Shown one piece after another: positions 22,171-54,436 of a DNA stretch of 64,000 bases. A program made the position numbers and the translations under genes. Source of the stretch: Patescibacteria group bacterium (lineage in GTDB: Bacteria > Patescibacteriota > Doudnabacteria > UBA920); the NCBI GenBank assembly GCA_023484515.1, contig JAMDAY010000028.1, forward strand, positions 2,544 through 66,543. Reading direction: 5' to 3'. Below the pieces are notes generated by a model, which saw only the letters and a program-made list of their open reading frames with translations, was not told the origin of the DNA and did not search any database. Every line of letters starts with the position of its first letter. Within the stretch, counting starts at the first letter, position 1.

Positions 22171-22206
22171 CTGTCCTTGTAGGGACAGGTCTAGACCTGT
22201 CCTTAC
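22171..22206. repeat. partial REP-like element containing the tgtaggg head and the gacaggtctagacctgtcc palindrome
   Basis: The same inner palindrome occurs in the valS-embedded copy at 48074-48131. Confidence 0.6.
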
Positions 22207-22665: not shown

Positions 22666-22908
22666 TTGTCTTCCCAAGAACAGTTGTCAATGCTGACTTC
22701 GGGCAAGCTGATTTCCATCAGCCAGGCCGCGACTTTAACTCCGTATAGTGCGGAGTATTTGAGTTTATTGGCCCGCAAGGGGAGACTGAATGCGATAAAA
22801 ATTTCCCGCGACTGGCTGACTACGGAAGAGGCGGTTAAAAATTACGTGGCCAAGCAGGTCAAGAAGCACGAAAAAATGCTCAAGATGCTGGAAGGAGGAA
22901 AAATATGA
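22666..22908 (+). CDS. excisionase-like helix-turn-helix DNA-binding protein (paralog A)
   Basis: TPYSAEYLSLLARKGRLNAIKISRDWLTTEEAVKNYVAKQVKKHEKML is nearly identical to the 31916-32146 product. HTH_17-like pattern. Its stop overlaps the start of the giant gene (ATGA). Confidence 0.6.
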   Translation: MSSQEQLSMLTSGKLISISQAATLTPYSAEYLSLLARKGRLNAIKISRDWLTTEEAVKNYVAKQVKKHEKMLKMLEGGKI

Positions 22909-25900: not shown

Positions 25901-28900
25901 TGCCAGCGCCGATGCCGAAAACGCGGATTTAATCTTCTTCCGCGGCGCCTCCGGGGCAGACCCTAACGCCTTAATTTCCTGGAATTCTACAGCCAAGCGC
26001 TTTGACTTAAACCAGCCAACTTTTATCCAGAACGCCTCGCCTTCCACCACAACCATTCCAACTTTGCTGCTTCAAGGCTCTGTCAGCCAAACCGCGGATA
26101 TTTTCCTCGCAGCCTCTTCCTCCGGCACTTCCTTGTTTAATATCACTTCCTCCGGCAACGTCGGGATAGGGACGACGGCACCAAGCCAGTTGTTGACGGT
26201 TGGTAATAACAATCAGTTTACGGTTAGTAGTTCTGGTGCAGTTGTGGCCGCTGGGCAGATTCAAGCCAATTCACTTTATACTCTCGGAAATGTGTATGGG
26301 TACGGTTTCCAAAGTGTTAATGGACCCTCGCAATCTTACATTGACATGACAAGTTATAGTAAAGCTATAGCATTTTCAGCCAGTTCCACAGAGGTAATGA
26401 GGTTAACAGGAAACGGCAATATCGGCATCGGCACCACATCGCCAGCGAACAAGCTAACGGTGGTTGATGCGGATACAACCTCCCCGGCGGGGATAGGTTC
26501 GATTAAGCTTACCCAGAATATTTCAAATCCTTACGAATTATTTATGGGTGTCAACAGCACCTATGACAACAACGAAGGAAACGGAGCCGCGTATATACAG
26601 GCGCAGCATTCGGGGGTGAATGTTTCCGGTCTGCTGCTTAACCCGAACGGAGGCCGCGTGGGCATTGGGGTGCTTCATCCTCAATCCGCGTTGGATGTCA
26701 ATGGCGGAATGAGTATTGGTTCTTACGCCGGAACCAACACGGCTCCATCGAATGGATTAATAGTAAGCGGCAATGTGGGCATCGGGACAACAAGTCCGGC
26801 GGCGAAGTTGGATGTCGTTACTTCCAGTAATAATGAAATGAGGTTTTTGGACCAGATGACCTATGGTACTGCAAGCAGCAGCAATGCCACCGGATTGTTT
26901 CTGACCACTCCAACTTATAATAACGGCGGCGGACCGTCTATTGCTTTCGGCCGCGGCACAGGAATCAATGCTACGGAAATGTGGGAGACCGGCATAGACT
27001 ATCGCGGCGGCGGCAATTTGTGGAGCGGCGGCGGAGCGGGCGCATATATTTTAGCCTATCAATGGGAACCCAACGGCCAGTCGGCGGACCGCATCGCCGT
27101 CAAACCTTACGGCCAAACTTCTATTGGTCTGCCGGATGCCGGCTTGAGCCAGTTTACTGCCCAGTTAGAAATTAGAAATCAAATAGCTAGTTTGCCAGTG
27201 GAGATTCTTTACCCCAATTTGACCCAAAGCGGCGATGTCTGGCAGGTACGCACTACGAACAATGGTTCGTCGGCCATTTCTATACCTTCCGGCGCTGTGG
27301 ACGCTTCCAACGCTAACGCTATCGTTCCAATTTTAAGATTAATGCATCCCTCCGCTGCTAGCGGCGTCGGTAATGGCGCAGCCATTGATTTTGTCGCCTC
27401 TTCCGATGGCACGACCATTGGATCAGAAATCGCCGGGACGCGCGCGGCTTCAGGGGGCTGGGGTAACTTGCAGTTTTTGACTCGCAACGGTTCGGGTCTT
27501 TTGGAACGCATGAGGATAGATAATAACGGCAACGTCGGGATTGGGACAACAGGTCCCACATCGGCATTAGAGGTTACGTCTGGCTCTGGAAATGCTTCTG
27601 TAAAATTAAGTTCAAATGCTTATGGCGGAGTAATAAGTACTGCCTCGGGCAGCAATAGCGGATACTTGTATCTAACGCCAGTCGGACGGGTGGTTAGCTT
27701 GTACGATAATACCAACGCTTATAAATTGAATATTTATAACGGCAGTAATGCTGAGTTTTCGTTTGATTCAAACGGCAATAGCTGGTTAAACGCAACCACC
27801 GGCAACGTGGGCATCGGGACGACGAGTCCTGGGGCAAAGTTGCATGTATATGGGACAGATTATACCGGTGCCATTTTTCAAAACACCAATCCTGCCAATT
27901 TTGGGTATAACCAGTTTACTAACGCTGGTGCGGCCACTTCGTATCAATACTGGTTTGGTAATACGTATAGTTCTGCAACGAATAGGTATGTTCCATCATC
28001 ATTCTTGCTCGACGCAGCAGGGACAGGCGGTTTAGGTTTGGCCGCTTCAAATGCTTCTGGGGCTATTCGCTTTTATACTGGTGGGGATAATGAAAGGGTC
28101 AGGATAGATAATAACGGCAACGTCGGGATTGGGACGACGAGCCCAAGCACTAAGTTAGAAGTTTGGGATGGCAATGATGGTTCTGGCGGAGTTATTACTG
28201 CCAAGGACGGCGGAGCTATATTAATGGCCGCTGATAGTAGCTATCCGTTGCAAGTTGGAAATAACACCGGAGGCGCCAATAATATTAGATTCCGTATCGG
28301 ATCGGATGGCACTATTGATTGGAACAACAATAACAGTGCTATTCCCACGATAACTTTGCCGACAAACAAATATCTGGCAGTATCGGGTGGAAATGGAATG
28401 ACAATAGCTGGCAACGTCGGAATTGGGACGATAAATCCGGCGGAATTGCTTGATGTGGCAGGTAACATCCGGCTGACAAACTTTAGGACCCATAATGTTA
28501 CCAGGACTTTAAGTTCTGCTATTAACGGGGTGGTAGATATTGGCACCTTCAACTTCACGTTGGGCGCGGGGGAGTTGGACGTAACCATAGTCACGCAAGG
28601 CACAGGCTACTCTATTGCTAAAACTTACAGAATCCCGGTCAGATATGATGCTACAAGCAATGCTTGGAAAATTGTATTGCCTAATTACGATTCCGGAGTA
28701 TATTCTGGAAATAATTTCCAACTGGAGGTTAAAGTCGGCACTACGAATGCCTCTTTGCGTATTCGCTCGTTGACTGCCAATTCAGCGACCGCTTATATTA
28801 CCATCCAGCAAAATGGCTTGAATAGCGACAGTTTTACCGAATCCACAGCCACTTCCACCGAGGCGGCTATTACCCAGACTTATACTTACACCCCGGTTGC

Positions 28901-30632
28901 ATTTTATAACGGTAATCTGGGAGTGCAAGTTGCCGCGCCAGATGCTGAATTGCAGGTAAATTCAATGCCTGTAAACAAGGGTTCTTATTCATTGTCAAAC
29001 TGGAACAGTACCGGCTCCAGAGCCGCTGCGTTTTTTGCCACGCCGAATAACAACGGGGGCAACAGCTTGGCCAGCGCGGAACCGGCTTTGATCTTGGGCA
29101 GGGAGGGTGTAACAGGCCAATCTTATGCCAATTTTGCGGAATTTAAACTGGCACATTACGAAGTTTCGGGCACAGACGCCCGTACCAGGATGGATATTGC
29201 TTTGACACACGGAGCGGGCGATGCAGCCGGAACTAACGTTATGAGCTTGCTAAGCAACGGCAACGTCGGGATTGGCACTACCTCTCCTTCCCAAAAGCTG
29301 GATGTCTGGGGCAATTTGAACGTCGCTACGTCAACTACGCCTGCATTGTTTGTGAACACAGCCACGGGAATGGTGGGAATTGGAACCGCGACGCCTGGGC
29401 ATCTTATTACACTTTCCGGCGGCGCTTATAGCGACGGCGCGACTTGGGAAAACGCTTCGGACGTAAACTTAAAGGAAAACTTTATTGACCTTGACCCGGC
29501 GGAAATTTTAACCAAGATAAATTCCTTAAAAGTCAGCCAGTGGAATTATAAGACGGACAAGAGCATCTCCTATATTGGCCCGACCGCCCAGGACTTTTAT
29601 TCCACATTTAACGCCTTGCGCCCCAGCAGCTCGCCGACCTCCATTTCCACGGTGGACCCGGCAGGCGTTGCATTGTTGGGAATACAGGCTTTGGACAATA
29701 AATTCAACAATTTACAATTGACGATCAGTAATTTACAGGGAAGCCTGATGAATCAGGCAACTACGACTAATCTTGCTGTTTATAACCCTTCCAACTTCTC
29801 GGGCGACAGCGTGGGCCAGGCCAAAATTTTGTCCGGCGCGACCAGCACTTTGGTTTCCTTCCAAAACGCCTACCAATACCAGCCCATAGTTACCCTAACT
29901 CCGGCCGGCCCTTACACCGCCCGCTACTGGGTGGAAAACGCCAACGCAAACGGCTTTACCGTAGTTTTGGAACACGCGGAAGAATACGACGTTACCTTTA
30001 ACTGGCATTCGTTTGCCAGCCCCGAAGCGAAATTAACGGTCAGCGACGGCACCACGCTGGACATTGTTTTGGTTTTGCCGCCGGCCGACCCGCCGCCTCC
30101 GGCCGCGCCTTTGGTGGTGCAGCCTGCGGCGGGGGACGCTACAGGCGGCTCTGCCGGTAGCAATCTTACAGACACTAATCCTCCTGCCGGAGGCGCAGAT
30201 GGTTCTTCCGGCGACAACCTTTCTCCGGACGACTCTTCTAACAACAGCCTTTCCGGCGACAACCTTCCCGCAGGGGATCTCTCAGGAAATACTTCCGGCA
30301 ATAATCCTCCCGCAGACAGCCTTTCCGGCGGTAATCTTACAGACATTAATCCTCCGGCAGGGGATGGAACAGGGGAAGGCGATCCGTCCGCTGATGGGTC
30401 TGCTTCTTCCGGCCAGCAAGGCCAGGTTTCCGGCGCAACCACAATTTCGGGCGATTCCACTTCGGCAAGCACTGAAACTGCATCCGGCGGCGACAGTTCT
30501 GCCGCCGGCAGCGATTCGTTGTCCGGCAGCGGTTCGGGCCCTACAGATACCTCTGCCGGTGTAGATGCCTCCACCGGCGCCACAGACGCATCCGCCGGCA
30601 CTACGGACGCCTCTTCCGGAAGTACACCGTAA
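22905..30632 (+). CDS. giant cell-surface tail-fibre-like protein: TM anchor, collagen-like GEKGEKGDKGDKGDTG, ~11 NVGIGTT repeats, Peptidase-S74 intramolecular chaperone domain, P/S/G/D-rich tail
   Basis: GGAGG RBS upstream. Repeated GNVGIGTTSP..KL.V units. The C-terminal SDVNLKENFIDLDPAEIL...YIGPTAQDF matches the S74 autoprocessing-domain motifs (SDxxLKxNI, GxxAQ). Confidence 0.85.
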   Translation: MKSFLQKIGNALGLRQQPVVINAKFITPQSLKENSKPAAPAFAAAPRVPESRIPDKNKTAPLARQTAKSAPMAKWIGKIPRPKFVLAVPKPHRALAVVLAKTSVVPFKLPQLPAPLKNKMLAKLPNRVLAGLAVLLFALSMSLWGAAKEIQIKHAVPAGVNSGILKSLSFSIPNNFSNNGHSGSSVSAAGQRIYQRPFGKYENLPAKEKAVFYPSNDNLHLLSLFTGGIGNWFGYFGGLRAEYAPYKYAAQNNSKGEAVSRHADLVKGRDSEFVGQAGGAPKLPVGTINFSARLQAVKISARTLALVWTDFLFRHPAINFASLQSAAQNWKTDISRSLKTGVAAFAGVGKSDAQIWGQALTWQISVRKNLPEAADSQRVASQDTIARYFVTLQNFNLKAKQSFAEIKTAAVSYFKVKDINFRNDAASGRVQKGEVLGAVDYPAGQESKFIKIFTNGVGEWFKILPDVKYSEANQQQKAGKGMVLGLSSAKENNSSTVGSISLNRLAQKSLQGLNNAAAWETRQLVKLANFGKVAAKGVGKVWGQVAGAGKGAWNRAVATAGHILQTGSEENVLPLITHDKFGQMVGNNGPAGNGEAANLNSQTPQTGPEAGHSAAAISQPAGAPNAGSGRPASAAVLTAVDPMFVNRLIDARLNQYLAEGKFKGEKGEKGDKGDKGDTGLITNPATNQSSAVVGGYPIVTYVPPVPAQGFAGTSLAGFGNLSAAILSVSDQTSLNNLTVTGNVSLATTTVTSLTIARINPQFTAGSVVFQGSSGLAQDNSNFFYDETNHRLGIGTSTPLTVLEIDATDALRIPVGNTAQRPAVALTGQIRYNLTTHQFEGYGNNSVWQGLGGVIDADQDTYITADTSNADEDTLRLFTLGNERLTVTSAGNVGIGTTTPGYALTVVGDGYFTGNVNIGQNLTVNDGAVIIGSATTTSLTVNAAIASNLIPDGNNTRSLGSASYFWSDLYVGELHANLISDASSTLSGTLSDSFTINSDNASADAENADLIFFRGASGADPNALISWNSTAKRFDLNQPTFIQNASPSTTTIPTLLLQGSVSQTADIFLAASSSGTSLFNITSSGNVGIGTTAPSQLLTVGNNNQFTVSSSGAVVAAGQIQANSLYTLGNVYGYGFQSVNGPSQSYIDMTSYSKAIAFSASSTEVMRLTGNGNIGIGTTSPANKLTVVDADTTSPAGIGSIKLTQNISNPYELFMGVNSTYDNNEGNGAAYIQAQHSGVNVSGLLLNPNGGRVGIGVLHPQSALDVNGGMSIGSYAGTNTAPSNGLIVSGNVGIGTTSPAAKLDVVTSSNNEMRFLDQMTYGTASSSNATGLFLTTPTYNNGGGPSIAFGRGTGINATEMWETGIDYRGGGNLWSGGGAGAYILAYQWEPNGQSADRIAVKPYGQTSIGLPDAGLSQFTAQLEIRNQIASLPVEILYPNLTQSGDVWQVRTTNNGSSAISIPSGAVDASNANAIVPILRLMHPSAASGVGNGAAIDFVASSDGTTIGSEIAGTRAASGGWGNLQFLTRNGSGLLERMRIDNNGNVGIGTTGPTSALEVTSGSGNASVKLSSNAYGGVISTASGSNSGYLYLTPVGRVVSLYDNTNAYKLNIYNGSNAEFSFDSNGNSWLNATTGNVGIGTTSPGAKLHVYGTDYTGAIFQNTNPANFGYNQFTNAGAATSYQYWFGNTYSSATNRYVPSSFLLDAAGTGGLGLAASNASGAIRFYTGGDNERVRIDNNGNVGIGTTSPSTKLEVWDGNDGSGGVITAKDGGAILMAADSSYPLQVGNNTGGANNIRFRIGSDGTIDWNNNNSAIPTITLPTNKYLAVSGGNGMTIAGNVGIGTINPAELLDVAGNIRLTNFRTHNVTRTLSSAINGVVDIGTFNFTLGAGELDVTIVTQGTGYSIAKTYRIPVRYDATSNAWKIVLPNYDSGVYSGNNFQLEVKVGTTNASLRIRSLTANSATAYITIQQNGLNSDSFTESTATSTEAAITQTYTYTPVAFYNGNLGVQVAAPDAELQVNSMPVNKGSYSLSNWNSTGSRAAAFFATPNNNGGNSLASAEPALILGREGVTGQSYANFAEFKLAHYEVSGTDARTRMDIALTHGAGDAAGTNVMSLLSNGNVGIGTTSPSQKLDVWGNLNVATSTTPALFVNTATGMVGIGTATPGHLITLSGGAYSDGATWENASDVNLKENFIDLDPAEILTKINSLKVSQWNYKTDKSISYIGPTAQDFYSTFNALRPSSSPTSISTVDPAGVALLGIQALDNKFNNLQLTISNLQGSLMNQATTTNLAVYNPSNFSGDSVGQAKILSGATSTLVSFQNAYQYQPIVTLTPAGPYTARYWVENANANGFTVVLEHAEEYDVTFNWHSFASPEAKLTVSDGTTLDIVLVLPPADPPPPAAPLVVQPAAGDATGGSAGSNLTDTNPPAGGADGSSGDNLSPDDSSNNSLSGDNLPAGDLSGNTSGNNPPADSLSGGNLTDINPPAGDGTGEGDPSADGSASSGQQGQVSGATTISGDSTSASTETASGGDSSAAGSDSLSGSGSGPTDTSAGVDASTGATDASAGTTDASSGSTP

Positions 30633-30715
30633 GAAATAGGACATATAAGACAAATAAGACAAATAGGACATATAAGACCTATAGGACTAATAGGACTAAT
30701 AAAACCAATAAATTT
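30633..30715. repeat. 9-bp minisatellite (ATAGGACAA / ATAAGACAA units) upstream of the 208-aa Avd-like gene
   Basis: Tandem units read directly. Translates to SYL/SYM runs on the minus strand. Confidence 0.8.
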
Positions 30716-31342
30716 ATGACAGAATTAATCGCCAAGCACGGCGGCTACAAAAACTTAAAATCTTTCCAGGCGGCGGAAATTGTTTACGACTACACCTTTG
30801 AATTCATTAACCGCTATGTCCAATTTTACAAAGACAAGGAGCAAATGGAAGGCGCGGCGCGCGGCGGCAAGCAGAACATCGGCGAAGGCAGCCAGACCGG
30901 CGGCACCTCCAGGCAAAGCGAAATTAGGCTGACAGATGTCGCCCGCGCCTCGCTGGAAGAACTGAAGCTGGATTACGAAGATTTTTTGCGCAAACAAAGC
31001 CTGCCGCAATGGGGCAAAAACGACCCGCGCGCGCTAGCCGTGCGCAAGCTGGCATACGAAAAGAATAGGACATATGGGACTTATAGGACATATATGTCAG
31101 AGCCAGAAACAGCGGCCAACTGCGCCTTGTGCTTAATTAACCAGGCAACTTATTTACTGGACAAACAACTGGCGGCGTTAGACAAGCAGTTAGGGCGGGA
31201 GGAGGACTTTAAAGAGCGTTACAGGCAAGTCCGCAAGGAACAAATATTCGGAGCAAAAGACGACTATGATGAATTTTTAAAGCAGTTTGGCAAGAAACGG
31301 CTGGAAAACGGGAGGGTGGTGCCGCTGGATGCGCCGGATTGA
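30716..31342 (+). CDS. extended four-helix-bundle (Avd-like) family protein
   Basis: QNIGEGSQ...VARASLEELKLDYEDFL parallels the NIAEGxxR...IAKGSxxEL motifs of TIGR02436. Repeat units also lie inside the ORF at 31060-31095 (RTYGTYRTYM). Confidence 0.45.
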   Translation: MTELIAKHGGYKNLKSFQAAEIVYDYTFEFINRYVQFYKDKEQMEGAARGGKQNIGEGSQTGGTSRQSEIRLTDVARASLEELKLDYEDFLRKQSLPQWGKNDPRALAVRKLAYEKNRTYGTYRTYMSEPETAANCALCLINQATYLLDKQLAALDKQLGREEDFKERYRQVRKEQIFGAKDDYDEFLKQFGKKRLENGRVVPLDAPD

Positions 31343-31560
31343 ACAAGGTGAATAGGACAAATAGGACGCATAGGACAGATAGGGCAGAGGGGCAAGGCCT
31401 ATGCGACCAGTAAGACGAATAGGACGTATAAGAACAATAAGACAAATAGGACATATAGGACATATAAGACAAATAGGACAAATAGGACAAATAGGACATA
31501 TAAGTCCTATAAGACCTATAAGTCCTATAAAGACCTATAACCTATAAAACCAAAACAGCC
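31343..31560. repeat. 9-bp minisatellite array, forward units then inverted units (self-palindromic)
   Basis: ataggacaa... followed by gtcctataagacctataagtcctat. Confidence 0.8.
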
Positions 31561-33948: not shown

Positions 33949-33985
33949 CAATGGGCACCATTGTGCTGCACAATGGTGCCCATTG
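33949..33985. repeat. REP hairpin caatgggcaccattgtg-ctg-cacaatggtgcccattg, immediately upstream of RAYT-1
   Basis: 17-bp perfect arms. Confidence 0.8.
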
Positions 33986-33998
33986 TAACCAGCTTAAT

Positions 33999-34652
33999 AT
34001 GAATAACCGGGATTATAAATTTTTTGCGCCCAATACAATCCATCATGTATACAACCGCGGAAATGGTAAAATGGATATTTTTAGGGACGGACAGGATTTT
34101 GCAAATCTGATTAAAAGAATAGCTTTAACTTTAGGCAAGGCGAAAGAGACCGCAACGGTGCCCATTGGCTGCCAATGGGCACCGTTGCGTATTGCGCCTT
34201 TTCCAAAGAACGCTTTTACCATACTGTGTTATTGCCTTATGCCTAACCATTTTCACTTCCTTATCAGGCAGAATACTGAAATTGCGATAAGTGATTTTAT
34301 TTCAAAACTTTGCAGTAGCTATGGTAAATTTTTTAATAAAAAATACGAACACGCTGGCGGCTTGTTCCAAGATCAGTTTAAAGCTGTGCGCGTTGAAAAT
34401 GATTCCCAGTTACTGTGGGCATCCGCCTACATCCACAACAACCCCAAAACCGCCGGACTTGTCCAAAAGTTGGAAGATTATGCCTGGAGCAGTTATTTGG
34501 ATTATATCGGCAAGCGGCAGGGAACTTTGTGCGACAAGGAATTTATTTTAAAGATGATCGGCGGCGCGGAAAAGTATAAAAGATTTACGGAAGGCGGCTT
34601 TGAAAAAATCAAGGGGAGAAAAGAATTGGAACATTTGCTGCTGGATAATTAA
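33999..34652 (+). CDS. REP-associated tyrosine transposase (RAYT, IS200/Y1 HuH family), copy 1
   Basis: HHVYNRGN and YCLMPNHFHFLI (HuH) motifs. The start was chosen at MNNRDYK by alignment to copy 2. An internal REP hairpin at 34151-34189 is translated as TATVPIGCQWAPLRIAP. Confidence 0.8.
   Translation: MNNRDYKFFAPNTIHHVYNRGNGKMDIFRDGQDFANLIKRIALTLGKAKETATVPIGCQWAPLRIAPFPKNAFTILCYCLMPNHFHFLIRQNTEIAISDFISKLCSSYGKFFNKKYEHAGGLFQDQFKAVRVENDSQLLWASAYIHNNPKTAGLVQKLEDYAWSSYLDYIGKRQGTLCDKEFILKMIGGAEKYKRFTEGGFEKIKGRKELEHLLLDN
34151..34189. repeat. REP hairpin cgcaacggtgcccattgg-ctg-ccaatgggcaccgttgcg, inside the RAYT-1 ORF
   Basis: 18-bp perfect arms. Shares the ggtgcccattg core with the upstream hairpin. 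Confidence 0.8.
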
Positions 34653-35431: not shown

Positions 35432-35610
35432 ACGATTTTAGGGTTTTTCTAAAATTAAAAACCTGTAAATTATTCTAATTTTTAATTGACCTAATTATTT
35501 TAAACAATATCCAATTCCTAATTCCCAATATCCAACTACTGCAGTTCATTGGGAATTGGATATTGGGTATTGGAAATTATTTAGGGTACTTAGGAATTAG
35601 GTTAATTTTG

Positions 35611-40424: not shown

Positions 40425-40662
40425 GTCATTGCGAGGTCAGGGCTTTATCTGGCCGAAGCAATCTTTTCCTTATGATATAGTAAGTAAAATAATTTTTTAG
40501 CCTTCAATAGCGACAGCCAAATACGAGTGCATTGTAGTTGCCTGATTTATCAGGCTCAAAGGGCCCCATAAATGGGGCAACTACGCAAGGGGCGGCTAAA
40601 AATTTATTTGATTCACTATAGTTTGCTTCGCCCCTCGGATGCACTCGGGGCTCGCAATGACA
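40425..40662. mobile_element. MITE-like element with TGTCATTGCGAG terminal inverted repeats (copy 2, 238 bp)
   Basis: TIRs at 40425-40436 and 40651-40662. The internal blocks match copy 1. It also contains gtagttgcctgatttatcaggctc, which has a related sequence at 21590. Confidence 0.65.
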
Positions 40663-40857
40663 TAAAAAAAGCGCCGCGTCCGTCCTTGCCCGAAGGCAAA
40701 TCGGATTTTCAATAATGTTGAAATTTAAAAAATTTAAGAATTGGGCATTTATTGGAAATTAGAAATTGGGAATTTGAAATTTTTAACTACAAATTATCAA
40801 ATAGCCACTAAAGTGGCAAAGCCATCAAGTATTAATTTTTAAGAAGAACGTTAATTT

Positions 40858-45483: not shown

Positions 45484-46713
45484 ATGAATAAACTCCAAAT
45501 TTCCCAACGCGCGCAAAAGATAATTGCTTCTCCCATAAGGAAGTTTTTGCCATTGATGCTGGAAGCGGAAAAACGGGGGATTAAAATATATAAGATCAAC
45601 GTGGGCGACCCGGATTTATTGCCACCGCCGGAATTTTACCGGGAAATAAAACGGCATTTGGCCGGCAATTTGGGTTATGCTCCTTCTCCCGGCATTGCCA
45701 GCCATGTGGCAGCCTGGCAGGAATATTACAGTCAAATGGGCGTAAATTTGCAGCCGGGAAATATTATCCCCACGCAGGGCGGCGCAGAAGCTATTTTACT
45801 GGCCATGCAGGCCGTGGCAGACCAGGGCGACGAGGTGGTAGTGTTTGAGCCTTTGTATGTCAGTTACCGGTCCTTTGCCGCCATGGCCGGCATTAAGCTG
45901 GTGCCCGTAACGTTGTCTATTGCCAACAACTTTAGCCTGCCTTCCGTTTCAGTTTTGAAAAATAAAATCACTAGCAGAACAAAGGCAATTGTAATTGTGA
46001 ATCCTGACAACCCCACAGGCAAGCTATGGAGCAAAAAAGAACTGGACCAGATAATCCAGGTTGCCAAAAAACATAACCTCTATATTATTTCCGACGAAAC
46101 TTACCGCGAAATTAGGTTTGACGGCAAAAAATTTTCCTGTCTTTTGACGCGCAAGGATGCCGCGGAAAATATAATATTATGCGACAGCGTGTCTAAGCGT
46201 TTTTCCATGCCCGGCGCGCGCATTGGCTGCGTGGCCAGTTTTAACAAAGAGATAATGTCAAGCGTGCTCAAGTTTGCCCAGGCCAGGCTTTCCGCCGGAA
46301 CTTTGGAACAGTTGGCCCTAGTTCCGCTGATAAAAAATAGCCGCTCCTATACCCGGAAAGTCCAAAAAGAATATTTGCGGCGGCGCAACGCGGTGGCAGC
46401 GGGCTTAAAAAATATTCCCGGCGCCGTATTCCGGCCGGCCCAGGGCGCATTTTACCAGGCCGTAAAACTGCCGGTTAAGTCCGCTGAGGATTTCGTAAAA
46501 TTTATGATCAGCGAATTCCAATACAAAGGCGCTACCGTCATGGTCACGCCCATGAAAGATTTCTACCTGACGCTGGGTTTAGGCGAAAATGAAGTCCGCA
46601 TAGCTTATGTGCTGAATGTTAAAGATTTGTCCGCAGCCATGGATGTTTTGCACAGAGGACTAATAGCATATAAAACGAGTCCCTTGAAGAGACCCTTCAA
46701 GGGGACCACATGA
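45484..46713 (+). CDS. class I/II PLP-dependent aminotransferase
   Basis: SKRFSMPGARIG (PLP-lysine region). About 409 aa. The last codons run into the REP hairpin at 46681-46704. Confidence 0.75.
   Translation: MNKLQISQRAQKIIASPIRKFLPLMLEAEKRGIKIYKINVGDPDLLPPPEFYREIKRHLAGNLGYAPSPGIASHVAAWQEYYSQMGVNLQPGNIIPTQGGAEAILLAMQAVADQGDEVVVFEPLYVSYRSFAAMAGIKLVPVTLSIANNFSLPSVSVLKNKITSRTKAIVIVNPDNPTGKLWSKKELDQIIQVAKKHNLYIISDETYREIRFDGKKFSCLLTRKDAAENIILCDSVSKRFSMPGARIGCVASFNKEIMSSVLKFAQARLSAGTLEQLALVPLIKNSRSYTRKVQKEYLRRRNAVAAGLKNIPGAVFRPAQGAFYQAVKLPVKSAEDFVKFMISEFQYKGATVMVTPMKDFYLTLGLGENEVRIAYVLNVKDLSAAMDVLHRGLIAYKTSPLKRPFKGTT
46681..46704. repeat. REP hairpin cccttgaagagacccttcaagggg (upstream flank of RAYT-2, within the aminotransferase 3' end)
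   Basis: Arms cccttgaag / cttcaaggg. Confidence 0.8.
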
Positions 46714-47390
46714 AATATAGAGATTACAAGGTGTTTGCACCGGGAGGATATTATCATGTATATAATCGCGGTGTAGCTAAAACTGATATCTTTTTAGACG
46801 ATGACGACCGCAAATTTTTTCTATTTCGCCTTAAAGAATATTTGTTTCCCTTGAAGGGTCTCTTCAAGGGAAAAAGGCAGAATTTACCTGGAGGGGCGGC
46901 AATTGTGGCCGAAACCCATACCCCTTATAAAAGAAAAATGTTGCCTCCAGACAGTTTTTCCTTGCTTTGTTATTGCCTTATGCCTAACCACTTCCATTTT
47001 CTTATTAGGCAGGAAGGTGTGTTGGAGGTCCGGAAGCTGTTGGCTAAAGTTTGCACCAGTTATTCTAAATTTTTTAACCAAAAATATGGAAGAGTTGGAA
47101 GCTTATTTCAGGATGCCTTTAAAGCCATTTCTGTAGAAAATGATCCGCAACTCCTTTGGGTTTCATCATACATCCATAATAATCCAAAAACAGCTAACCT
47201 TGTCGATAACCTAACTGATTATCCTTGGAGCAGCTATTTGGATTATATCGGCAAGCGGCAGGGAACTTTGTGCGACAAGGAATTTATTTTAAAGATGATC
47301 GGGGGCGCGGAAAAGTATAAAAGATTTGCGGAAGACAGCTTTGCGAAAATAAAGGAAAGGAAAGATTGTGAAGGATTATTTTTAGATTAA
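46710..47390 (+). CDS. REP-associated tyrosine transposase (RAYT), copy 2
   Basis: YHVYNRG and YCLMPNHFHFLI motifs. The 3' ~100 bp are about 95% identical in DNA to RAYT-1. An internal REP copy at 46848-46870 encodes LFPLKGLFKGK. Confidence 0.8.
   Translation: MKYRDYKVFAPGGYYHVYNRGVAKTDIFLDDDDRKFFLFRLKEYLFPLKGLFKGKRQNLPGGAAIVAETHTPYKRKMLPPDSFSLLCYCLMPNHFHFLIRQEGVLEVRKLLAKVCTSYSKFFNQKYGRVGSLFQDAFKAISVENDPQLLWVSSYIHNNPKTANLVDNLTDYPWSSYLDYIGKRQGTLCDKEFILKMIGGAEKYKRFAEDSFAKIKERKDCEGLFLD
46848..46870. repeat. REP hairpin cccttgaagggtctcttcaaggg inside the RAYT-2 ORF
   Basis: Same arms as the flanking copies. Confidence 0.8.
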
Positions 47391-47725: not shown

Positions 47726-50182
47726 TTATTTATGCGGTTGCGGCCACTTGGAAACCATCAGCATGGGGTCGTTGCCTAGTAATTTTGCCTCATGCATTAT
47801 TGACCACAGCTCTTCTGTAATAAACGGCATAAAGGGGTGCAGGAGCTTTATGGAATTAATAAGCACGTGAAGCAGGAGTTTTTGGGTGCTTTCTTTCAAG
47901 TTTTCGTCGGCCAGTTGTTTTTTGGAAGCTTCAATATAAATGTCCGCGAATTCGTGCCAGACAAACTGGTAAATTTCCTGCGCGGCTTCGTGCAGGCGGA
48001 AGTTTTCGAGATGGTTAGTGGCCGAAATTTTTAGCGCTTCCAGCTTGCCGTTGATTTCCTTGTCCGCATCGGTTGTAGGGGAGGGTCTTGACCCTCCCTC
48101 CTTGGAGGACAGGTCTAGACCTGTCCCTACAGCCGCGCTATCTATATTTGCCAGCACGAACCTTGCAATATTCCACAGTTTGTTGCCAAAGTGCTTCATG
48201 CCTTTTATTTTGTCTTCGGACAAGGGAATGTCGTTGCCAGCCGCAGTAGAGAAGACAAGCGCAAACCGAAGCGCGTCCGTTCCATAGGTGTCAATTACGC
48301 CCAAAGGGTCTATTACGTTGCCTTTGCTTTTGCTCATCTTCTGCCGGTCCTTGTCGCGCACCAGGCCGTGCAAAAAGACACGTTCAAAAGGCGGTTTGCC
48401 AACGCGGTAATAGGAAAACATAATCATTCGCGCGACCCAGAAGAACAAAATATCCCAGGCGGTTTCCATGACTTGGGTCGGATAGTAGTTTTCCAAAGTC
48501 TTGGTGCCATGCTTGGCGTCGTTGGCCATCATAGTGGCATACGGCCATTGGCCGGATGAAAACCAGGTATCGAAAGTATCAGGATCCTGATACCAACCTA
48601 TTTCTTGTGGAGGTTTCTCCCCAATAAACCTTTCGGCTTCTCGTTGTGGTCTTGGAACCTTGTTTTTTTCTATCCAGGAGTCTTCCAAAATTCCTTTTTG
48701 CTTTAGTAAATCAACATAACCTATATACATTTGTATAATTCCGTCTTGGAAAGAAGCCCATGATATATTTTTATCTTTCCACCTACTTTCTTGTTTCAAG
48801 TCCCAGGAAAATTTATTGAATTCTTTTTCATCGGTCAAGCCTAACTTTTTACAGATGACCTCGCTTTTGAAATGAAATGCTTCTTTATCAGAACCCACCT
48901 CAGTTTTATACCAGACCGGGATCGGAATGCCCCACCAGATTTGGCGGGAAATTGGCCAGTCGCGGATGTTTTCCATCCAATGCCGGAAGATTTTTTCAAA
49001 GCGCTCGGTTACAATTTTAACCTCGCCTTTGTCCAAAGCCTGCAAAGCCATATCGCGCAAAGAAGGCCTGTCGTCCTTCAGCGGTTCGGTCATTTTCACG
49101 AACCACTGCGGAATTATTTGCGGCTCTATGAGCGTGCCGCATTTATAGCAAAGCTGGACATTGTGCTTGTAGTTTTCGTCTATATGGTCAACTAAACTTT
49201 TAGCCTTGAGCTTTTCAATAATTTTCGGCCGCGCTTCCAGAATTTTCATTCCCGCAAATTCGCCGGCAATGGGAAGCAACCGTCCGCGATGGTCAATAAT
49301 TTGCTCTTTGTCCAGCTTGAGGCGTTCGGCCATTTCAAAGTCAACCGGGTCATGCCAGGGAGTTATGGTCATTACGCCGGTACCGAATTCCATATCCACC
49401 GCTTTGTCCTTAATTACCGTTGCGGTTATGGGGCCGTTTATCCATTCCAATTCTATTTTTTGCCCGTTTTTGTATTGCCCGTATCTTTTGTCGTCAGGAT
49501 GCATAACCACGTATTTGTCACCGAATTTGGTTTCTGGACGAGAAGTTGAGATAATGAACGGACCATATTTAAGATAGTAGAAAGGTTCTTGCCGTTCTTC
49601 GTATTTAGTTTCCAAATCGGACAGTGCGGTCTGGTGTTTGGGACACCAGTTGCCCAGGCGGTCGCCGCGGTAAATAAGGCCGTCTTTATACATCATTTCA
49701 AACGTTCGGTAAACAACTTTGACAATTTCCGGGTCAAGCGTAAAAATATTGCGGCTCCAGTCGCACGAGGCTCCAAGGCGGCGTATGCTTTCTTCGGTAA
49801 TATGCTTGTTGGCCTGCACGTAATCCCAGCATTCTTTGTAAAATTCGTCGCGTTGCATCTTAAAGCGCGATTTGCCTTCCTTTTCCAGTTTTTTTTCAAA
49901 CACCACTTGGGTTTCAAACCCGGCATGATCGGTTCCGGGCAGCCATAAAGTTTTTTTACCGCGCATCCGGTTAAAACGGATTAAAATATCCTGGATGGTA
50001 AAACCCAAGGCATGGCCGACGTGCGCCGGCGCGTTGGCGTTGGACGGCGGCATAATAATGGCGTAGGGCTCCCGGTTTTCCGCATCGGGAAGATTGTCAG
50101 GATTAAAATACCCCGACTCCAGCCATTTTTGGTAAATTTTGCCTTCCACTGTCGCGTGGTTGTATGCTTTGTCTAGTTCCAT
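47726..50182 (-). CDS. valS: valine--tRNA ligase, carrying an in-frame REP-like insertion
   Basis: PYAIIMPP...HVGHA (HIGH) and KMSKSKGN (KMSKS) motifs are present. The extra segment SKEGGSRPSPTT is encoded by the palindrome at 48074-48131. Confidence 0.8.
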   Translation of the reverse strand: MELDKAYNHATVEGKIYQKWLESGYFNPDNLPDAENREPYAIIMPPSNANAPAHVGHALGFTIQDILIRFNRMRGKKTLWLPGTDHAGFETQVVFEKKLEKEGKSRFKMQRDEFYKECWDYVQANKHITEESIRRLGASCDWSRNIFTLDPEIVKVVYRTFEMMYKDGLIYRGDRLGNWCPKHQTALSDLETKYEERQEPFYYLKYGPFIISTSRPETKFGDKYVVMHPDDKRYGQYKNGQKIELEWINGPITATVIKDKAVDMEFGTGVMTITPWHDPVDFEMAERLKLDKEQIIDHRGRLLPIAGEFAGMKILEARPKIIEKLKAKSLVDHIDENYKHNVQLCYKCGTLIEPQIIPQWFVKMTEPLKDDRPSLRDMALQALDKGEVKIVTERFEKIFRHWMENIRDWPISRQIWWGIPIPVWYKTEVGSDKEAFHFKSEVICKKLGLTDEKEFNKFSWDLKQESRWKDKNISWASFQDGIIQMYIGYVDLLKQKGILEDSWIEKNKVPRPQREAERFIGEKPPQEIGWYQDPDTFDTWFSSGQWPYATMMANDAKHGTKTLENYYPTQVMETAWDILFFWVARMIMFSYYRVGKPPFERVFLHGLVRDKDRQKMSKSKGNVIDPLGVIDTYGTDALRFALVFSTAAGNDIPLSEDKIKGMKHFGNKLWNIARFVLANIDSAAVGTGLDLSSKEGGSRPSPTTDADKEINGKLEALKISATNHLENFRLHEAAQEIYQFVWHEFADIYIEASKKQLADENLKESTQKLLLHVLINSIKLLHPFMPFITEELWSIMHEAKLLGNDPMLMVSKWPQPHK
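48074..48131. repeat. REP-like GTAG-headed palindrome, in frame inside valS
   Basis: tgtaggggagggtcttgaccctccctccttggaggacaggtctagacctgtccctaca. Confidence 0.8.
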
Positions 50183-50345: not shown

Positions 50346-50541
50346 TCTGCTTAGATAATTACCTGGATTTCCAGGCAGATATCTAACCAGATCTTAATTT
50401 AACCGCTTTAACGGGCGGCCTCCGGATGGGTCTAATGGTGCAGTTGCCCAATTATTGAGCTGAGGGCCTCATAAATGAGGCAACTACAGGTTCTTCCATC
50501 GCCTGCCGTTCCGGCGACATCCGGAACATAAGCTTTATAAC

Positions 50542-50586: not shown

Positions 50587-51714
50587 TTAAAGCTCCAAGT
50601 TCGGGTCTGCCTTTACAGCCTTGTAGCTTTTTGGTTTATAACCGTTAAACAGCATGAAAGCCGCGGCCATGCCTATTATTTCCGCGTTGTCGCCGGTTAG
50701 GGACAAGGGAGGGGCGAAAAATTTTAAATTGAAGGTTTTAGATTTTAGATTTAAAGATTTTCGGAGCGCAAGGTTTGCCGAAACGCCGCCGGACAGGCTT
50801 ATGGACCTGGCTTTAAATTCATTGGCTGCGCGCAGGGTTTTGGCAGCCAGCACGTCAACCACGGCCTGCTGGAAGGAAGCGCATACATTAGTTTTTAGCT
50901 TATAGCTTTTAGCTGTTGGGGGATTATCGCGTAAATAGTAAAGCACTGCGGTTTTCAGGCCGGCAAACGAAAAGTTGTAATCTTTGGAATTAATCATGGG
51001 CCGCGGGAAATTTATGGCTGCAGGGTTTCCTTTGGCGGCCAATTTGCCAATTTGCGGACCGCCCGGATAAGGGAGGCCTAAAAGTTTTGCCACTTTATCA
51101 AAAGCCTCGCCTGCCGCGTCGTCCACGGTCTGGCCCAGGACTTTGTAATGTTTAATATCTTCCATTAATACTAAAATCGTATGGCCGCCGCTTACGATGA
51201 GGCTGATCATGGGGAAAAAATTAGCTTTTAGCTTATAGCTTTTAGCTGTTAGTCGGCCAAAAGGCGAATAGAGGTGGCCGGACAAATGATTAACCGGAAT
51301 AACAGGTTTGCCCGTAGCCAGCGACAGCGCCTTGGCGAACTCCACGCCTACGATTAGCGAAGGAATAAGGCCAGGACCGGCCGTGACCGCAATATAATCA
51401 ATTTGGCTTAAAACGTCCTCGCCGTTTTTGCAACTCAATTTTTGACGGCCGTCAAAAATTGAGTTGCAGGCGCCGGTTAAAGCTTTTTTTACGACCGGCA
51501 AAATATTTTTCACGTGCGCGCGGGCCGCCGCTTCGGGCACCACGCCGCCCATTTTGCTGTGCAGGCTAATTTGTGATTTTACCACCGAAGACAGGGTTTT
51601 AATCTTGGGGAAGCCCGCTGCAGAGCCTGAATTTTCCAGGCGCAAGACCGCCGCGGCTGTTTCGTCGCAACTGCTTTCTATGGCAAGGATGGTTTTACGG
51701 TTTTGTACGGTCAT
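50587..51714 (-). CDS. tsaD: tRNA N6-adenosine threonylcarbamoyltransferase TsaD, with in-frame lysine-rich repeat insertions
   Basis: ILAIESSCDETAAAV and the HLSGH metal site are present. The repeat ttagcttatagcttttagctgtt occurs twice (50892-50916 and 51220-51244) and encodes TAKSYKLK. Confidence 0.85.
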   Translation of the reverse strand: MTVQNRKTILAIESSCDETAAAVLRLENSGSAAGFPKIKTLSSVVKSQISLHSKMGGVVPEAAARAHVKNILPVVKKALTGACNSIFDGRQKLSCKNGEDVLSQIDYIAVTAGPGLIPSLIVGVEFAKALSLATGKPVIPVNHLSGHLYSPFGRLTAKSYKLKANFFPMISLIVSGGHTILVLMEDIKHYKVLGQTVDDAAGEAFDKVAKLLGLPYPGGPQIGKLAAKGNPAAINFPRPMINSKDYNFSFAGLKTAVLYYLRDNPPTAKSYKLKTNVCASFQQAVVDVLAAKTLRAANEFKARSISLSGGVSANLALRKSLNLKSKTFNLKFFAPPLSLTGDNAEIIGMAAAFMLFNGYKPKSYKAVKADPNLEL

Positions 51715-54219: not shown

Positions 54220-54436
54220 GGGGTCTTTCCAATCTTTATCCCACATAAATTTTCCCTATGCCGGAAGGCGCGCCTTCCGGCATAGGGAAGCATTGCTGTC
54301 TTGCGCAAATTCCGAGGCGTAACTCCCCACAACTCCCCAAAGCCTTGATAAATTAAGGGAAATATGTTAAACTGACAAAGCTGTTGAGGTTGCGGAAATT
54401 TTTAAATTTTAAATTTTCAATCTTTAAATTTATCTT

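What the first reader, a model, noticed from the sequence alone, without database searches (positions are those of the whole stretch)
50587..51714. tsaD carries in-frame lysine-rich repeat insertions
The 23-bp AT-rich unit ttagcttatagcttttagctgtt occurs twice inside tsaD, at 50892-50916 and 51220-51244, giving ...TAKSYKLKANFF... and ...TAKSYKLKTNV.... A third AT-rich insertion (tttagattttagatttaaa) gives SLNLKSKTFNLKFF near the C-terminus. The protein is 375 aa against about 340 for typical TsaD. Together with uvrB and valS, three essential genes in 64 kb tolerate repeat insertions.
Basis: partly seen in the sequence, partly recalled or inferred. Interest (0 to 1): 0.55.

Follow-up and report, generated by a model that had tools for sequence, protein, structure and literature searches.

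The report
Translated 7-base repeat arrays in tsaD
Two loops of the essential tRNA-modification enzyme TsaD in this Patescibacteria genome are encoded by copies of a short 7-base tandem repeat that also sits, letter for letter, inside dozens of other housekeeping genes of related bacteria, so the extra amino acids come from repeat DNA living inside genes rather than from ordinary protein evolution.

Summary
tsaD (50587-51714, minus strand, 375 aa) carries the exact 23-mer at 50895-50917 and 51228-51250, extendable to about 33 nt with 2 mismatches. Both copies are read as TAKSYKLK(A/T)N. Each copy is a tandem array of a 7-nt unit, (AGCTAWA)x4-5. The first adds 7 aa and the second 5 aa relative to array-free TsaDs.

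The third "insertion" is not an insertion. It aligns without a gap to Thermotoga TsaD and models as helix plus strand, although it is also heptamer-built.

Period-7 arrays are about 90-fold over chance in the window. They are 4-10 times denser in Patescibacteria contigs than in other bacteria. 112 TsaD relatives show 7-aa periodicity at the same four sites.

The exact 21-mer occurs in at least 120 metagenome contigs. It lies in frame in about 70 protein families, sometimes at the same position in proteins only 28-45% identical. Synonymous codons inside the array are nearly fixed, and in one relative every unit carries the same G-to-C change.

Best reading: a DNA-level heptanucleotide repeat family, translated passively in tolerant loops. 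How it spreads and whether it has a function remain unresolved.

The parts
50587..51714 (-). tsaD coding sequence (375 aa), intact and full length
   Evidence: ORF. TIGR03723 equivalog 368.5 bits, above the 296 cut-off. Best PDB matches are TsaD chains at E about 1e-76. The metal-binding His143/His147 and other motifs are invariant in alignment A1.
51220..51252 (-). Heptanucleotide array, site 1. Coding strand CTA ACA GCT AAA AGC TAT AAG CTA AAA GCT AAT, about 5 units of AGCTAWA, encoding L155-N165 (LTAKSYKLKAN). It lies in the loop after the HxxxH motif.
   Evidence: TRF gives period 7 x4.6. Exact 23-mer. +7 aa versus T. maritima. Exactly 21 nt longer than the empty site in L207. pLDDT below 50 at residues 155-159.
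50887..50919 (-). Heptanucleotide array, site 2. Same unit order as site 1, encoding T267-N276 (TAKSYKLKTN), at the loop/N-cap of helix 268-299.
   Evidence: +5 aa versus T. maritima and P0037. Near-identical DNA in L082, L085, L207 and L209, with codon identity 87-100% against 33-47% elsewhere in the gene.
50716..50757 (-). Heptamer-built segment, site 3 (SLNLKSKTFNLKFF; units TTAAATC/TAAAATC). It encodes a regular helix-turn-strand and is not an insertion.
   Evidence: Period-7 array at 78% identity. Gap-free alignment to 6n9a_D. Helix 315-327 and strand 331-333 at high pLDDT. Lag-7 identity of 0.34 at this site across 112 homologues.
51429..51468 (.). 40-nt perfect palindrome (TGCAACTCAATTTTTGAC GGCC GTCAAAAATTGAGTTGCA) inside tsaD. 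It encodes part of the +17-aa loop at residues 80-103 (site 0).
   Evidence: Stem of 20, loop of 0. Relatives L081, L084, L085 and L086 have palindromes at the same site with the same GACGGCCGTC-type centre and different arms. 14 of 20 pairs change on both sides and 91% of cells pair, against 34-46% when the partner is slid. pLDDT below 50 at residues 86-89.

Best explanation
The two repeated segments are copies of a heptanucleotide tandem array, (AGCTAAA/AGCTATA)n. The array belongs to a library of 7-nt microsatellite-like arrays carried by this Patescibacteria lineage, in intergenic DNA and in structurally tolerant loops of housekeeping genes.

In a coding region the array can survive in only one orientation and one frame. 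There, three units (21 nt) are read as a 7-aa period (AKSYKLK). The TAT in every second unit is what removes the in-frame TAA of the pure repeat. I infer that translation is incidental: the unit of inheritance and change is the DNA repeat, not the peptide.

Shown here:
- 7-nt periodicity and its strong excess.
- Residence at four fixed TsaD sites across the clade.
- The same 21-30-mer in many unrelated genes.
- Near-fixed synonymous sites.
- Parallel change of all units in one relative.
- A net gain of exactly three units at site 1.

Inferred:
- Arrays are kept periodic by replication slippage, template switching or gene conversion. This would be concerted evolution of a shared 'satellite library'.
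- The two near-identical tsaD copies, with the same order of unit variants and 333 nt apart, arose by copying between sites rather than independently.
- TsaD stays active because sites 0 and 1 are flexible surface loops and site 2 extends a helix cap.

Not resolved: whether the family persists through such copying alone or through recognition by a conserved factor.
For: Excess of period 7:
- 9 arrays in the window against 0.1 expected. Periods 6 and 8 give 1 and 0.
- Density is 200-241 per Mb in these contigs and 107 per Mb in tsaD-selected Patescibacteria loci. It is 24 per Mb in 68 loci from other bacteria.

Clade-wide signal:
- In 112 TsaD homologues, identity at lag 7 aa is 0.25-0.36 in four loops. 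Other lags mostly give 0.02-0.09, with up to 0.17 at site 3.
- The DNA of relatives shows heptamers AGCTAWA, ACTAAAA, CTACAAA and GGATTAA at the same sites.

Not peptide-driven:
- Codon identity at identical residues is 87-100% inside the site-2 array and 33-47% in the rest of the gene. This covers five genomes, with Fisher p of 0.001-0.02 per pair.
- In L210 all four units carry the same G-to-C change. The peptide changes from TAKSYKLKA to TPKTYNLKP while periodicity is kept.

Dispersal:
- The exact 21-mer is in at least 120 metagenome contigs, with 125 occurrences.
- 73 of these lie in ORFs of 150 aa or more, always read as KSYKLKA.
- The ORFs match about 70 Pfam families: TsaD 8; Aminotran_5, KsgA and GT1 4 each; aaRS, TIM, MiaA, UvrC and Mur ligase 3 each.
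- TsaDs carrying it are only 42-49% identical to this one and hold it at site 0, 1 or 2.
- 24 of 60 homologous ORF pairs have it at the same aligned position, down to 28-45% aa identity.

Other points:
- Site 1 and site 2 share 4-mers within one protein in 10 of 112 cases, against 2.4 expected. No permutation out of 2000 reached 10.
- The empty site 1 in L207 is exactly 21 nt shorter.
- The AF2 model places sites 0 and 1 in low-confidence loops.
Against: - The extreme conservation is more than simple neutral repeat DNA predicts. Arrays are 100% identical in orthologue pairs whose flanks are 84-92% identical. The same 21-mer sits at orthologous positions in proteins 28-45% identical. Some selection or a continuing resetting process is required, and I could not identify it.
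- No terminal inverted repeats, target duplications or conserved flanks mark a mobile element.
- No copy-number variation was seen among about 10 near-identical contigs. Frequent slippage is therefore not demonstrated.
- Only two copies of this unit family lie in the 64-kb window.
- The heptamers are very diverse: 110 canonical units among 196 arrays. A single copy-and-paste family cannot explain all arrays.
- The taxonomic origin of the individual metagenome contigs was not checked.
- My literature search was limited to open-access full text.
Confidence: 0.65

Rival explanations
1. The arrays are functional cis-elements in DNA or RNA, recognised by a trans-acting factor conserved across Patescibacteria. 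Candidates include a protein that binds consecutive heptads, a nucleoid or RNA-binding protein, or a recombination or uptake signal. Purifying selection on the nucleotide sequence keeps them in place, and protein loops are simply where they can be accommodated.
For: - Synonymous positions are nearly fixed.
- Arrays are identical in orthologues whose flanks have diverged.
- The same 21-mer sits at orthologous positions in proteins 28-45% identical.
- Copy number is stable.
- 37% of non-coding arrays have an inverted partner within 120 nt, so they could form hairpins.
- Heptad arrays bound cooperatively by ribbon-helix-helix repressors are a known precedent (own knowledge). Cold-shock proteins binding one heptamer each are cited in PMC4679880.
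Against: - More than 100 different heptamers occur, and at least 8 occur in this window alone. That is hard to reconcile with one recognition sequence.
- The unit can change in all copies at once, as in L210.
- Density of any one family is a few tens per Mb, far below known uptake sequences.
- No candidate factor was identified.
Confidence: 0.2
2. The segments are lineage-specific, lysine-rich protein loops selected for TsaD function, such as tRNA or TsaB/TsaE contacts. On this view the DNA repetition is a by-product.
For: - The loops sit at conserved positions in all relatives.
- Site 2 is modelled with high confidence as a helix extension.
- Many host proteins of the same array act on tRNA, rRNA or DNA.
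Against: - The peptides at the same site are unrelated between relatives: KDKGLKIKD, LQTTNYKLQ, RLNAKRYPLNA. Only the 7-nt periodicity is shared.
- Codon choice is fixed beyond what the peptide requires.
- The G-to-C change in all units alters four residues at once.
- The same array lies in TIM, aminotransferases, glycosyltransferases and Mur ligases.
- Some relatives lack the site-1 array altogether.
Confidence: 0.07
3. The arrays are footprints or cargo of a conventional mobile element. This could be a MITE/RPE-like insertion or a REP mobilised by the RAYT-like Y1 transposases encoded in the window.
For: - Identical sequence appears in many unrelated genes and in intergenic DNA.
- Two RAYT-like genes lie in the window.
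- GTAG-headed palindromes are inserted in frame in uvrB and valS.
- In-frame selfish repeats are known from Rickettsia. I recall these RPE elements from memory; the search returned papers on the topic, which I did not read.
Against: - The arrays are direct repeats, not palindromes.
- No inverted termini, target duplications or conserved flanks were seen in 111 contexts.
- There is no GTAG head.
- Length is 21-35 nt, against 100-150 nt for RPEs.
- Array unit number and unit sequence vary continuously.
Confidence: 0.06
4. The arrays are a phase-variable contingency locus. Gain or loss of one 7-nt unit would shift the frame and switch tsaD off and on.
For: The unit length is not a multiple of three and lies inside a coding region. 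Heptanucleotide phase variation exists in other bacteria (papers listed).
Against: - tsaD is a core housekeeping gene.
- Arrays have identical unit numbers in orthologues at 84-92% nt identity and in about 10 near-identical contigs.
- Arrays are short (3-5 units) and interrupted by unit variants.
Confidence: 0.02

Closest known systems
Heptanucleotide simple-sequence repeats of bacteria: the long SSRs of Mrazek and co-workers 2007, the STRR repeats of Calothrix/Nostoc, and GGGAATC repeats of Xanthomonas (as summarised in PMC4692102 and PMC4679880)
   Same: Tandem head-to-tail 7-nt units in a few copies. Period 7 is specifically over-represented relative to neighbouring periods. Many dispersed loci per genome. 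Some occur as inverted pairs. The function is unknown, and polymerase slippage has been proposed as the origin.
   Different: Those repeats are described as essentially intergenic. Here more than half of the arrays lie inside long ORFs. They sit at conserved loop positions of essential enzymes. The same 21-30-mer is shared by lineages whose host proteins are only 28-49% identical. Units are AT-rich and of many kinds.
TAACTGA direct repeats of marine Beggiatoaceae, cyanobacteria and Bacteroidetes (PMC4679880)
   Same: One specific heptamer is repeated 2-6 times at many loci and shared across distant lineages, with no visible vehicle. The authors note that only one orientation can be translated (giving LSVISYQ) and that stop codons limit where it can sit.
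   Different: TAACTGA repeats are mainly 5' of start codons, and a translational regulatory role was suggested. The arrays here are internal to coding regions, in frame. They include a unit variant (TAT for TAA) that keeps the frame open.
Rickettsia palindromic elements (RPEs) and other in-frame selfish repeats, including Coxiella MITEs (PMC5896051) and coding palindromes of Nematomorpha mitochondria (PMC6649704)
   Same: Repeat DNA is inserted in frame into housekeeping genes and translated. It is tolerated because it lands in surface-exposed segments. The same element is seen in many unrelated genes. The 40-nt palindrome in tsaD and the GTAG palindromes in uvrB and valS resemble this class most closely.
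   Different: RPEs are 100-150-nt palindromic elements with a defined consensus. The tsaD arrays are 21-35-nt direct tandem repeats without palindromy or termini, and their unit sequence evolves in concert.
Eukaryotic satellite DNA 'library' model and concerted evolution (own knowledge)
   Same: A set of related repeat variants is shared among lineages. Whole arrays switch or homogenise to one variant, as with the G-to-C change in every unit of L210.
   Different: The arrays here are tiny (3-5 units), lie in bacterial genes and are translated.

Membership tests
TsaD (tRNA N6-adenosine threonylcarbamoyltransferase, TIGR03723) | Full-length match above the curated equivalog cut-off | tested here: met
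   368.5 bits against a 296.1 cut-off, covering residues 9-353 of the query and positions 1-311 of 314 in the profile.
TsaD (tRNA N6-adenosine threonylcarbamoyltransferase, TIGR03723) | Conserved HxxxH metal-binding motif and ASKHA-fold core | tested here: met
   H143 and H147 are invariant in 34 homologues. AF2 model has pLDDT 83 and pTM 0.81 with the expected strand/helix order. Aligns to solved TsaDs at E about 1e-76.
TsaD (tRNA N6-adenosine threonylcarbamoyltransferase, TIGR03723) | t6A synthesis activity with TsaB/TsaE | not testable with these tools
Bacterial heptanucleotide SSR / STRR-type repeats | Tandem head-to-tail copies of a 7-nt unit, 3 or more copies | tested here: met
   TRF gives period 7 x4.6 at 51221-51252 and x2.7 at 50896-50914. 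My own scan agrees.
Bacterial heptanucleotide SSR / STRR-type repeats | Period 7 over-represented relative to chance and to other periods | tested here: met
   9 arrays against 0.1 in shuffles; periods 6 and 8 give 1 and 0. 200-241 per Mb against 24 per Mb in other bacteria.
Bacterial heptanucleotide SSR / STRR-type repeats | Same unit dispersed at many loci of a genome | tested here: inconclusive
   Only two AGCTAWA arrays lie in the 64-kb window. In contigs that carry the 21-mer, 14 further AAAAGCT-unit arrays and 8 with the related units AAGCTAT and AAGCTAC were found after masking the seed. No complete genome was available.
Bacterial heptanucleotide SSR / STRR-type repeats | Predominantly intergenic location | tested here: not met
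   All three tsaD arrays are coding. 107 of 196 arrays in related contigs lie in ORFs of 100 aa or more.
In-frame selfish palindromic elements (RPE-like) | Palindromic element of about 100-150 nt with a family consensus | tested here: not met
   The arrays are direct repeats of 21-35 nt with no conserved flanks. The tsaD palindrome is 40 nt, and its arms differ between genomes.
In-frame selfish palindromic elements (RPE-like) | In-frame insertion in many unrelated housekeeping genes, at surface positions | tested here: met
   About 70 Pfam families carry the same 21-mer in frame. Sites 0 and 1 of TsaD are low-pLDDT loops.
REP / RAYT system | Short imperfect palindrome with a conserved GTAG head, multiple copies, and a RAYT gene flanked by them | tested here: not met
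   The heptamer arrays have neither palindromy nor a GTAG head. The window does hold GTAG palindromes and two RAYT-like ORFs below the family cut-off (56 and 48 bits against 80), but these are separate features.
Phase-variable contingency SSR | Unit-number polymorphism between closely related genomes | tested here: not met
   No length differences among about 10 near-identical contigs, and identical arrays in orthologue pairs at 84-92% nt identity. No reads of the source sample were available.

The most novel reading that the evidence does not exclude
Patescibacteria may maintain a conserved repertoire of heptanucleotide arrays by an active, sequence-aware process. That process could be a dedicated copying or insertion mechanism. 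Alternatively, a conserved protein or RNA could read consecutive heptads.

On this reading, the arrays inside essential genes are functional nucleic-acid elements that the proteins have to accommodate. Site 3 of TsaD, where array sequence encodes a normal helix-strand element, would be an example of array sequence overwriting coding sequence.

This reading would explain three observations:
- Identical 21-30-mers at orthologous positions in proteins only 28-45% identical.
- Near-fixed synonymous sites.
- Persistence of periodicity at four TsaD sites across the clade.
Probability: 0.25. Interest if true: 0.85.

Novelty: new variant of a known kind. Interest (0 to 1): 0.62.

Why it matters
If the pattern holds genome-wide, a substantial share of the lineage-specific insertions that make Patescibacteria (CPR) proteins longer than their homologues would not be protein innovations. 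They would be translated repeat DNA: 7-nt arrays and perfect palindromes.

This matters in several ways:
- It affects how CPR protein insertions are interpreted and how orthologues are aligned and modelled.
- It affects how repeat dynamics are understood in very small genomes with reduced repair.
- Nucleotide-level conservation of a 21-30-nt array across deeply diverged lineages and unrelated genes needs an explanation. The candidates are a conserved reader, a copying mechanism or horizontal exchange. Each is directly testable in cultivated Saccharibacteria.
- The two 33-nt direct repeats lie 333 nt apart in an essential gene. Recombination between them would give an in-frame 111-codon deletion, so they are a built-in liability.

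Tried and rejected
- **Genome scan.** It returned mostly distant TsaDs from other phyla. These served only as a control set for repeat density. Close relatives had to be fetched one by one.
- **Known RNA genes.** Rfam at gathering thresholds and ARAGORN found only two tRNAs in the window and nothing in or next to tsaD.
- **Mobile-element signature.** I looked for conserved flanks, inverted termini or target duplications around the array in 111 contexts and found none.
- **Phase variation.** Near-identical contigs showed no unit-number differences.
- **Shared YTA/TAR core.** The idea that all heptamers share such a core holds for 92% of arrays in the window set but only 56-62% elsewhere, so it was dropped as a definition.
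- **Uptake-signal reading.** Considered and set aside, because one family reaches only tens of copies per Mb and units are too diverse.
- **TIGR-Tas guide arrays.** Considered after a literature hit. Those have 36-nt units with variable spacers and box C/D motifs, which the heptamer arrays lack.
- **Cross-site sharing.** Sharing of peptide words within one protein was significant only for site 1 versus site 2, not for the other site pairs.
- **Literature.** Searches found no description of in-frame heptamer arrays in Patescibacteria. The library covers open-access papers only.
Full report
**What is at the locus**

The ORF at 50587-51714 on the minus strand encodes a 375-aa protein. It is a full-length TsaD: it scores 368.5 bits on the NCBIfam equivalog TIGR03723 (cut-off 296). 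It matches solved TsaD chains at E about 1e-76. An identical protein is on record from a Patescibacteria metagenome-assembled genome, on a 78-kb contig.

None of 100 dinucleotide shuffles gave a match. Reading the sequence, the similarity runs for about 33 nt with two mismatches. The copies are 333 nt apart, a multiple of three.

On the coding strand both copies read CTA/CCA ACA GCT AAA AGC TAT AAG CTA AAA G/ACT AAT. Tandem Repeats Finder reports a 7-nt period in both. The '23-bp unit' is therefore four to five copies of AGCTAAA/AGCTATA.

**Are they insertions?**

- **Versus Thermotoga.** Against T. maritima TsaD (6n9a), the query is 7 aa longer at the first array (residues about 153-166). It is 5 aa longer at the second (residues about 263-276).
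- **Versus close relatives.** Some close homologues lack the arrays. P0008 has PLGRLPVSLFP at site 1, and its DNA (L207) is exactly 21 nt, or three heptamers, shorter. P0037 (L208) is 15 nt shorter at site 2.
- **In the structural model.** An AlphaFold2 model built on 34 homologues has mean pLDDT 83. It puts site 1 in a low-confidence loop (residues 155-159, pLDDT below 50). It puts site 2 at the N-terminal cap of helix 268-299. It puts the third segment in a confident helix (315-327) and strand (331-333).
- **Where the extra length comes from.** Most of it comes from an N-terminal loop (+10 aa) and a +17-aa loop at residues 80-103.

**The repeats are a clade-wide, DNA-level feature**

Period-7 arrays are strongly enriched:
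- With 3 or more copies at 85% identity or better, there are 9 in the window against 0.1 in shuffles. Periods 6 and 8 give 1 and 0.
- At a looser threshold there are 16. Three are in tsaD, two in a FemAB-like gene, one in a Mur ligase gene and one in a giant ORF. Three more lie in short unannotated ORFs. Six are intergenic.

In 112 Patescibacteria TsaD homologues (59-73% identical in the BLASTP listing), four loops show amino-acid identity of 0.25-0.36 at lag 7. At other lags it is mostly 0.02-0.09, with up to 0.17 at site 3. That is the signature of 21 nt, or three heptamers, read through all three frames.

The DNA of eleven relatives confirms heptamer arrays at the same sites with different units:

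| Locus | Unit or feature |
|---|---|
| L082, L085, L207, L209 | AGCTAWA |
| L081 | ACTAAAA |
| L083 | CTACAAA; also a CTTAGCA array at site 0 |
| L084, L086 | GGATTAA |

The peptides differ completely between relatives (KDKGLKIKD, LQTTNYKLQ, RLNAKRYPLNA). Only the periodicity is shared.

**Evidence that the nucleotide sequence, not the peptide, is what is inherited**

- **Synonymous codons.** In five genomes whose TsaDs are 66-75% identical, codons for identical residues match in 87-100% of cases inside the site-2 array. In the rest of the gene they match in 33-47% (Fisher p 0.001-0.02 for every pair).
- **Parallel change.** In L210 the same array carries a G-to-C change in all four units. 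CTA ACA CCT AAA ACC TAT AAC CTA AAA CCT replaces ...GCT AAA AGC TAT AAG CTA AAA GCT. This turns TAKSYKLKA into TPKTYNLKP while keeping the repeat. Parallel change of every unit is concerted evolution of a repeat, not peptide conservation.
- **Frame constraint.** The pure unit AGCTAAA would give an in-frame TAA every third unit. The ATA variant supplies TAT at exactly that place. This follows directly from the sequence.

**The same array in many other genes**

- Of 125 occurrences, 73 lie in ORFs of 150 aa or more. All are read as KSYKLKA, the only forward frame without a stop.
- The 72 ORFs match about 70 Pfam families. These include TsaD (8), class-V aminotransferases, KsgA and glycosyltransferases (4 each). 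They also include class-I aminoacyl-tRNA synthetases, triosephosphate isomerase, MiaA, UvrC and Mur ligases (3 each), plus TGT, TrmD, TsaE, RNase HII and Fpg.
- The TsaDs among them are only 42-49% identical to the window's protein. They carry the array at site 0, site 1 or site 2.
- Among 60 homologous ORF pairs, 24 have the 21-mer at the same aligned position, down to 28-45% protein identity.
- Orthologue pairs whose flanks are 84-92% identical have 100% identical arrays.
- About ten near-identical contigs show no unit-number variation.
- No conserved flanks, inverted termini or target duplications surround the array.

Array density and diversity across contig sets:

| Contig set | Period-7 arrays per Mb |
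|---|---|
| Contigs carrying the 21-mer, seed masked | 241 |
| Window plus the first six fetched relatives (L081-L086) | 200 |
| Patescibacteria loci chosen only for tsaD | 107 |
| 68 loci from other bacteria | 24 |

Units are very diverse, with 110 canonical heptamers among 196 arrays. More than half of the arrays lie in long ORFs. 37% of the non-coding ones have an inverted partner nearby.

**The palindrome in tsaD**

Residues 83-96 are encoded by a 40-nt perfect palindrome at 51429-51468. Four relatives have a palindrome at the same place with the same GACGGCCGTC-type centre but different arms.
- On a 5-sequence alignment, 14 of 20 pairs change on both sides and 91% of cells pair. With slid partners, 34-46% pair, and none of 500 shuffles reached the observed values.
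- Almost no G-U pairs occur, and the symmetry runs through the centre. This points to a DNA-level symmetry rather than an RNA hairpin under selection (inference).
- Template switching at quasi-palindromes is a known process that perfects inverted repeats (own knowledge). It would explain the pattern without selection.
- The window holds 19 such hairpins or palindromes against 1-4 in shuffles.

**Interpretation**

The best-supported reading is that the two tsaD segments belong to a lineage-wide library of heptanucleotide arrays. These arrays live in intergenic DNA and in tolerant loops of housekeeping proteins, and they are translated passively.

The two copies share the same order of unit variants. 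They are the only two copies of this unit in 64 kb. Site 1 and site 2 also share words within a protein more often than expected (10 of 112 against 2.4). I therefore infer copying between the sites, by gene conversion or template switching.

What keeps the family so constant across deep divergence is unresolved. Continuing homogenisation from a shared library and selection by a conserved reader are both compatible with the data.

Rejected readings: protein-level adaptation, a classical mobile element, phase variation and artefact. Each is contradicted by specific results given in the rival explanations.

**Relation to known things**

Over-representation of heptanucleotide repeats in bacteria, with a proposed polymerase-slippage origin, has been reported. 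So have the STRR repeats of cyanobacteria, GGGAATC repeats of Xanthomonas and TAACTGA repeats of Beggiatoaceae. All of these are described as essentially intergenic (PMC4692102, PMC4679880).

In-frame selfish repeats are known from Rickettsia (RPEs) and Coxiella, and coding palindromes from Nematomorpha mitochondria. The search returned papers on these topics. I did not read them, so what I say about RPE properties rests on my own knowledge.

I found no description of in-frame heptamer arrays at conserved loop positions of essential genes in Patescibacteria. That search covered open-access text only. I therefore class this as a new variant of a known kind.

**Limits**

- Only 64 kb of the genome was available.
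- The taxonomy of the individual metagenome contigs was not established.
- The pairwise tests are not phylogenetically independent.
- The palindrome alignment was centred by me on the symmetry axis.
- No read data or experiments were possible.

Noticed in passing
window 15438-15560 (uvrB, ORF 14652-16766, minus strand): UvrB has a segment of about 40 aa (residues 403-443) with no counterpart in solved UvrBs. Its DNA contains an imperfect palindrome of about 60 nt that starts with GTAGGGGC and ends with GCCCCTAC. This looks like a REP-like element inserted in frame.
   Followed up: partly
window 48106-48131 (valS) and 22178-22203: ValS carries the palindrome GTAGGGACAGGTCTAGACCTGTCCCTAC, read as VGTGLDLS, in a loop about 10 aa longer than in T. 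thermophilus ValRS. An exact 26-nt reverse-complement copy lies at 22178-22203. ValS also has an extra segment of about 80 aa at residues 428-507.
   Followed up: partly
window 33951-34652 and 46710-47390: Two paralogous Y1 (IS200-like) transposase ORFs, with a 300-nt stretch 78% identical. Their best NCBIfam match is 'REP-associated tyrosine transposase', at 56 and 48 bits, below the cut-off of 80. The second is flanked by inverted CCCTTGAAG..CTTCAAGGG hairpins (46681, 46848, 47394). They may mobilise the GTAG palindromes.
   Followed up: partly
window 21590-21612, 29742-29764, 40534-40556, 50463-50489: Four copies of a 23-27-nt hairpin with a GTAG head (GTAGTTGCCTGATTCATCAGGCT). One lies just downstream of tsaD. 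This is a REP-like family.
   Followed up: no
window 30634-30711 and 31352-31551, flanking ORF 30716-31342: Long arrays of a 9-nt unit (WATARGACN, with TRF also reporting periods 18, 27 and 36) lie on both sides of a 208-aa ORF. The ORF matches the four-helix-bundle / 23S-rRNA-intervening-sequence protein family and its suffix domain. Their purpose is unknown. They do not look like TIGR arrays, because they have no variable spacers.
   Followed up: partly
window 18385-18410, 18480-18508 (FemAB-like ORF); 19895-19934 (Mur ligase ORF); 2108-2140; 35505-35578; 40751-40782; 54395-54427: Further heptamer arrays. Two lie in a FemAB-family gene and one in a Mur ligase gene (read as EFIIHNSKFIIH). One overlaps the stop codon of polA. 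An inverted pair lies between two minus-strand genes. One lies in the rpoB-rpoC spacer and one just upstream of tRNA-Glu. Many have a 14-nt super-period of alternating unit variants.
   Followed up: partly
window 21538, 21731, 22179, 34655, 36787, 50210, 51429, 54252, 62518 (start positions): Nine perfect palindromes with no loop (24-42 nt), among 19 hairpins where shuffles give 1-4. Symmetry through the centre suggests a DNA-level origin, or dyad-symmetric protein sites, rather than RNA hairpins.
   Followed up: partly
L084 around 290-350 (site N); L209 site 1; P0021, P0030, P0047, P0092 and P0095 in alignment A1: Relatives carry peptides such as LSLKGEG, PSPRGRG and GGGLGRGD in the same TsaD loops. 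In L084 the DNA is a GC-rich palindrome (CCCTCTCCCTTAAGGGAGAGGG). A second class of translated palindromes therefore uses the same sites.
   Followed up: partly
L210 1001-2194, site 1: This array has an 8-nt unit (AAGTTATC x3-4, read as AKLSSYQVIK). Period-8 arrays are also about 9 times denser in the 21-mer contigs than in other bacteria.
   Followed up: no
window 22905-30632: Giant ORF of 2575 aa with an internal repeat of about 34-48 nt (CGGCAAYGTSGGSATYGGSAC...) recurring every 260-1100 nt. It is probably a repeat-domain surface protein.
   Followed up: no
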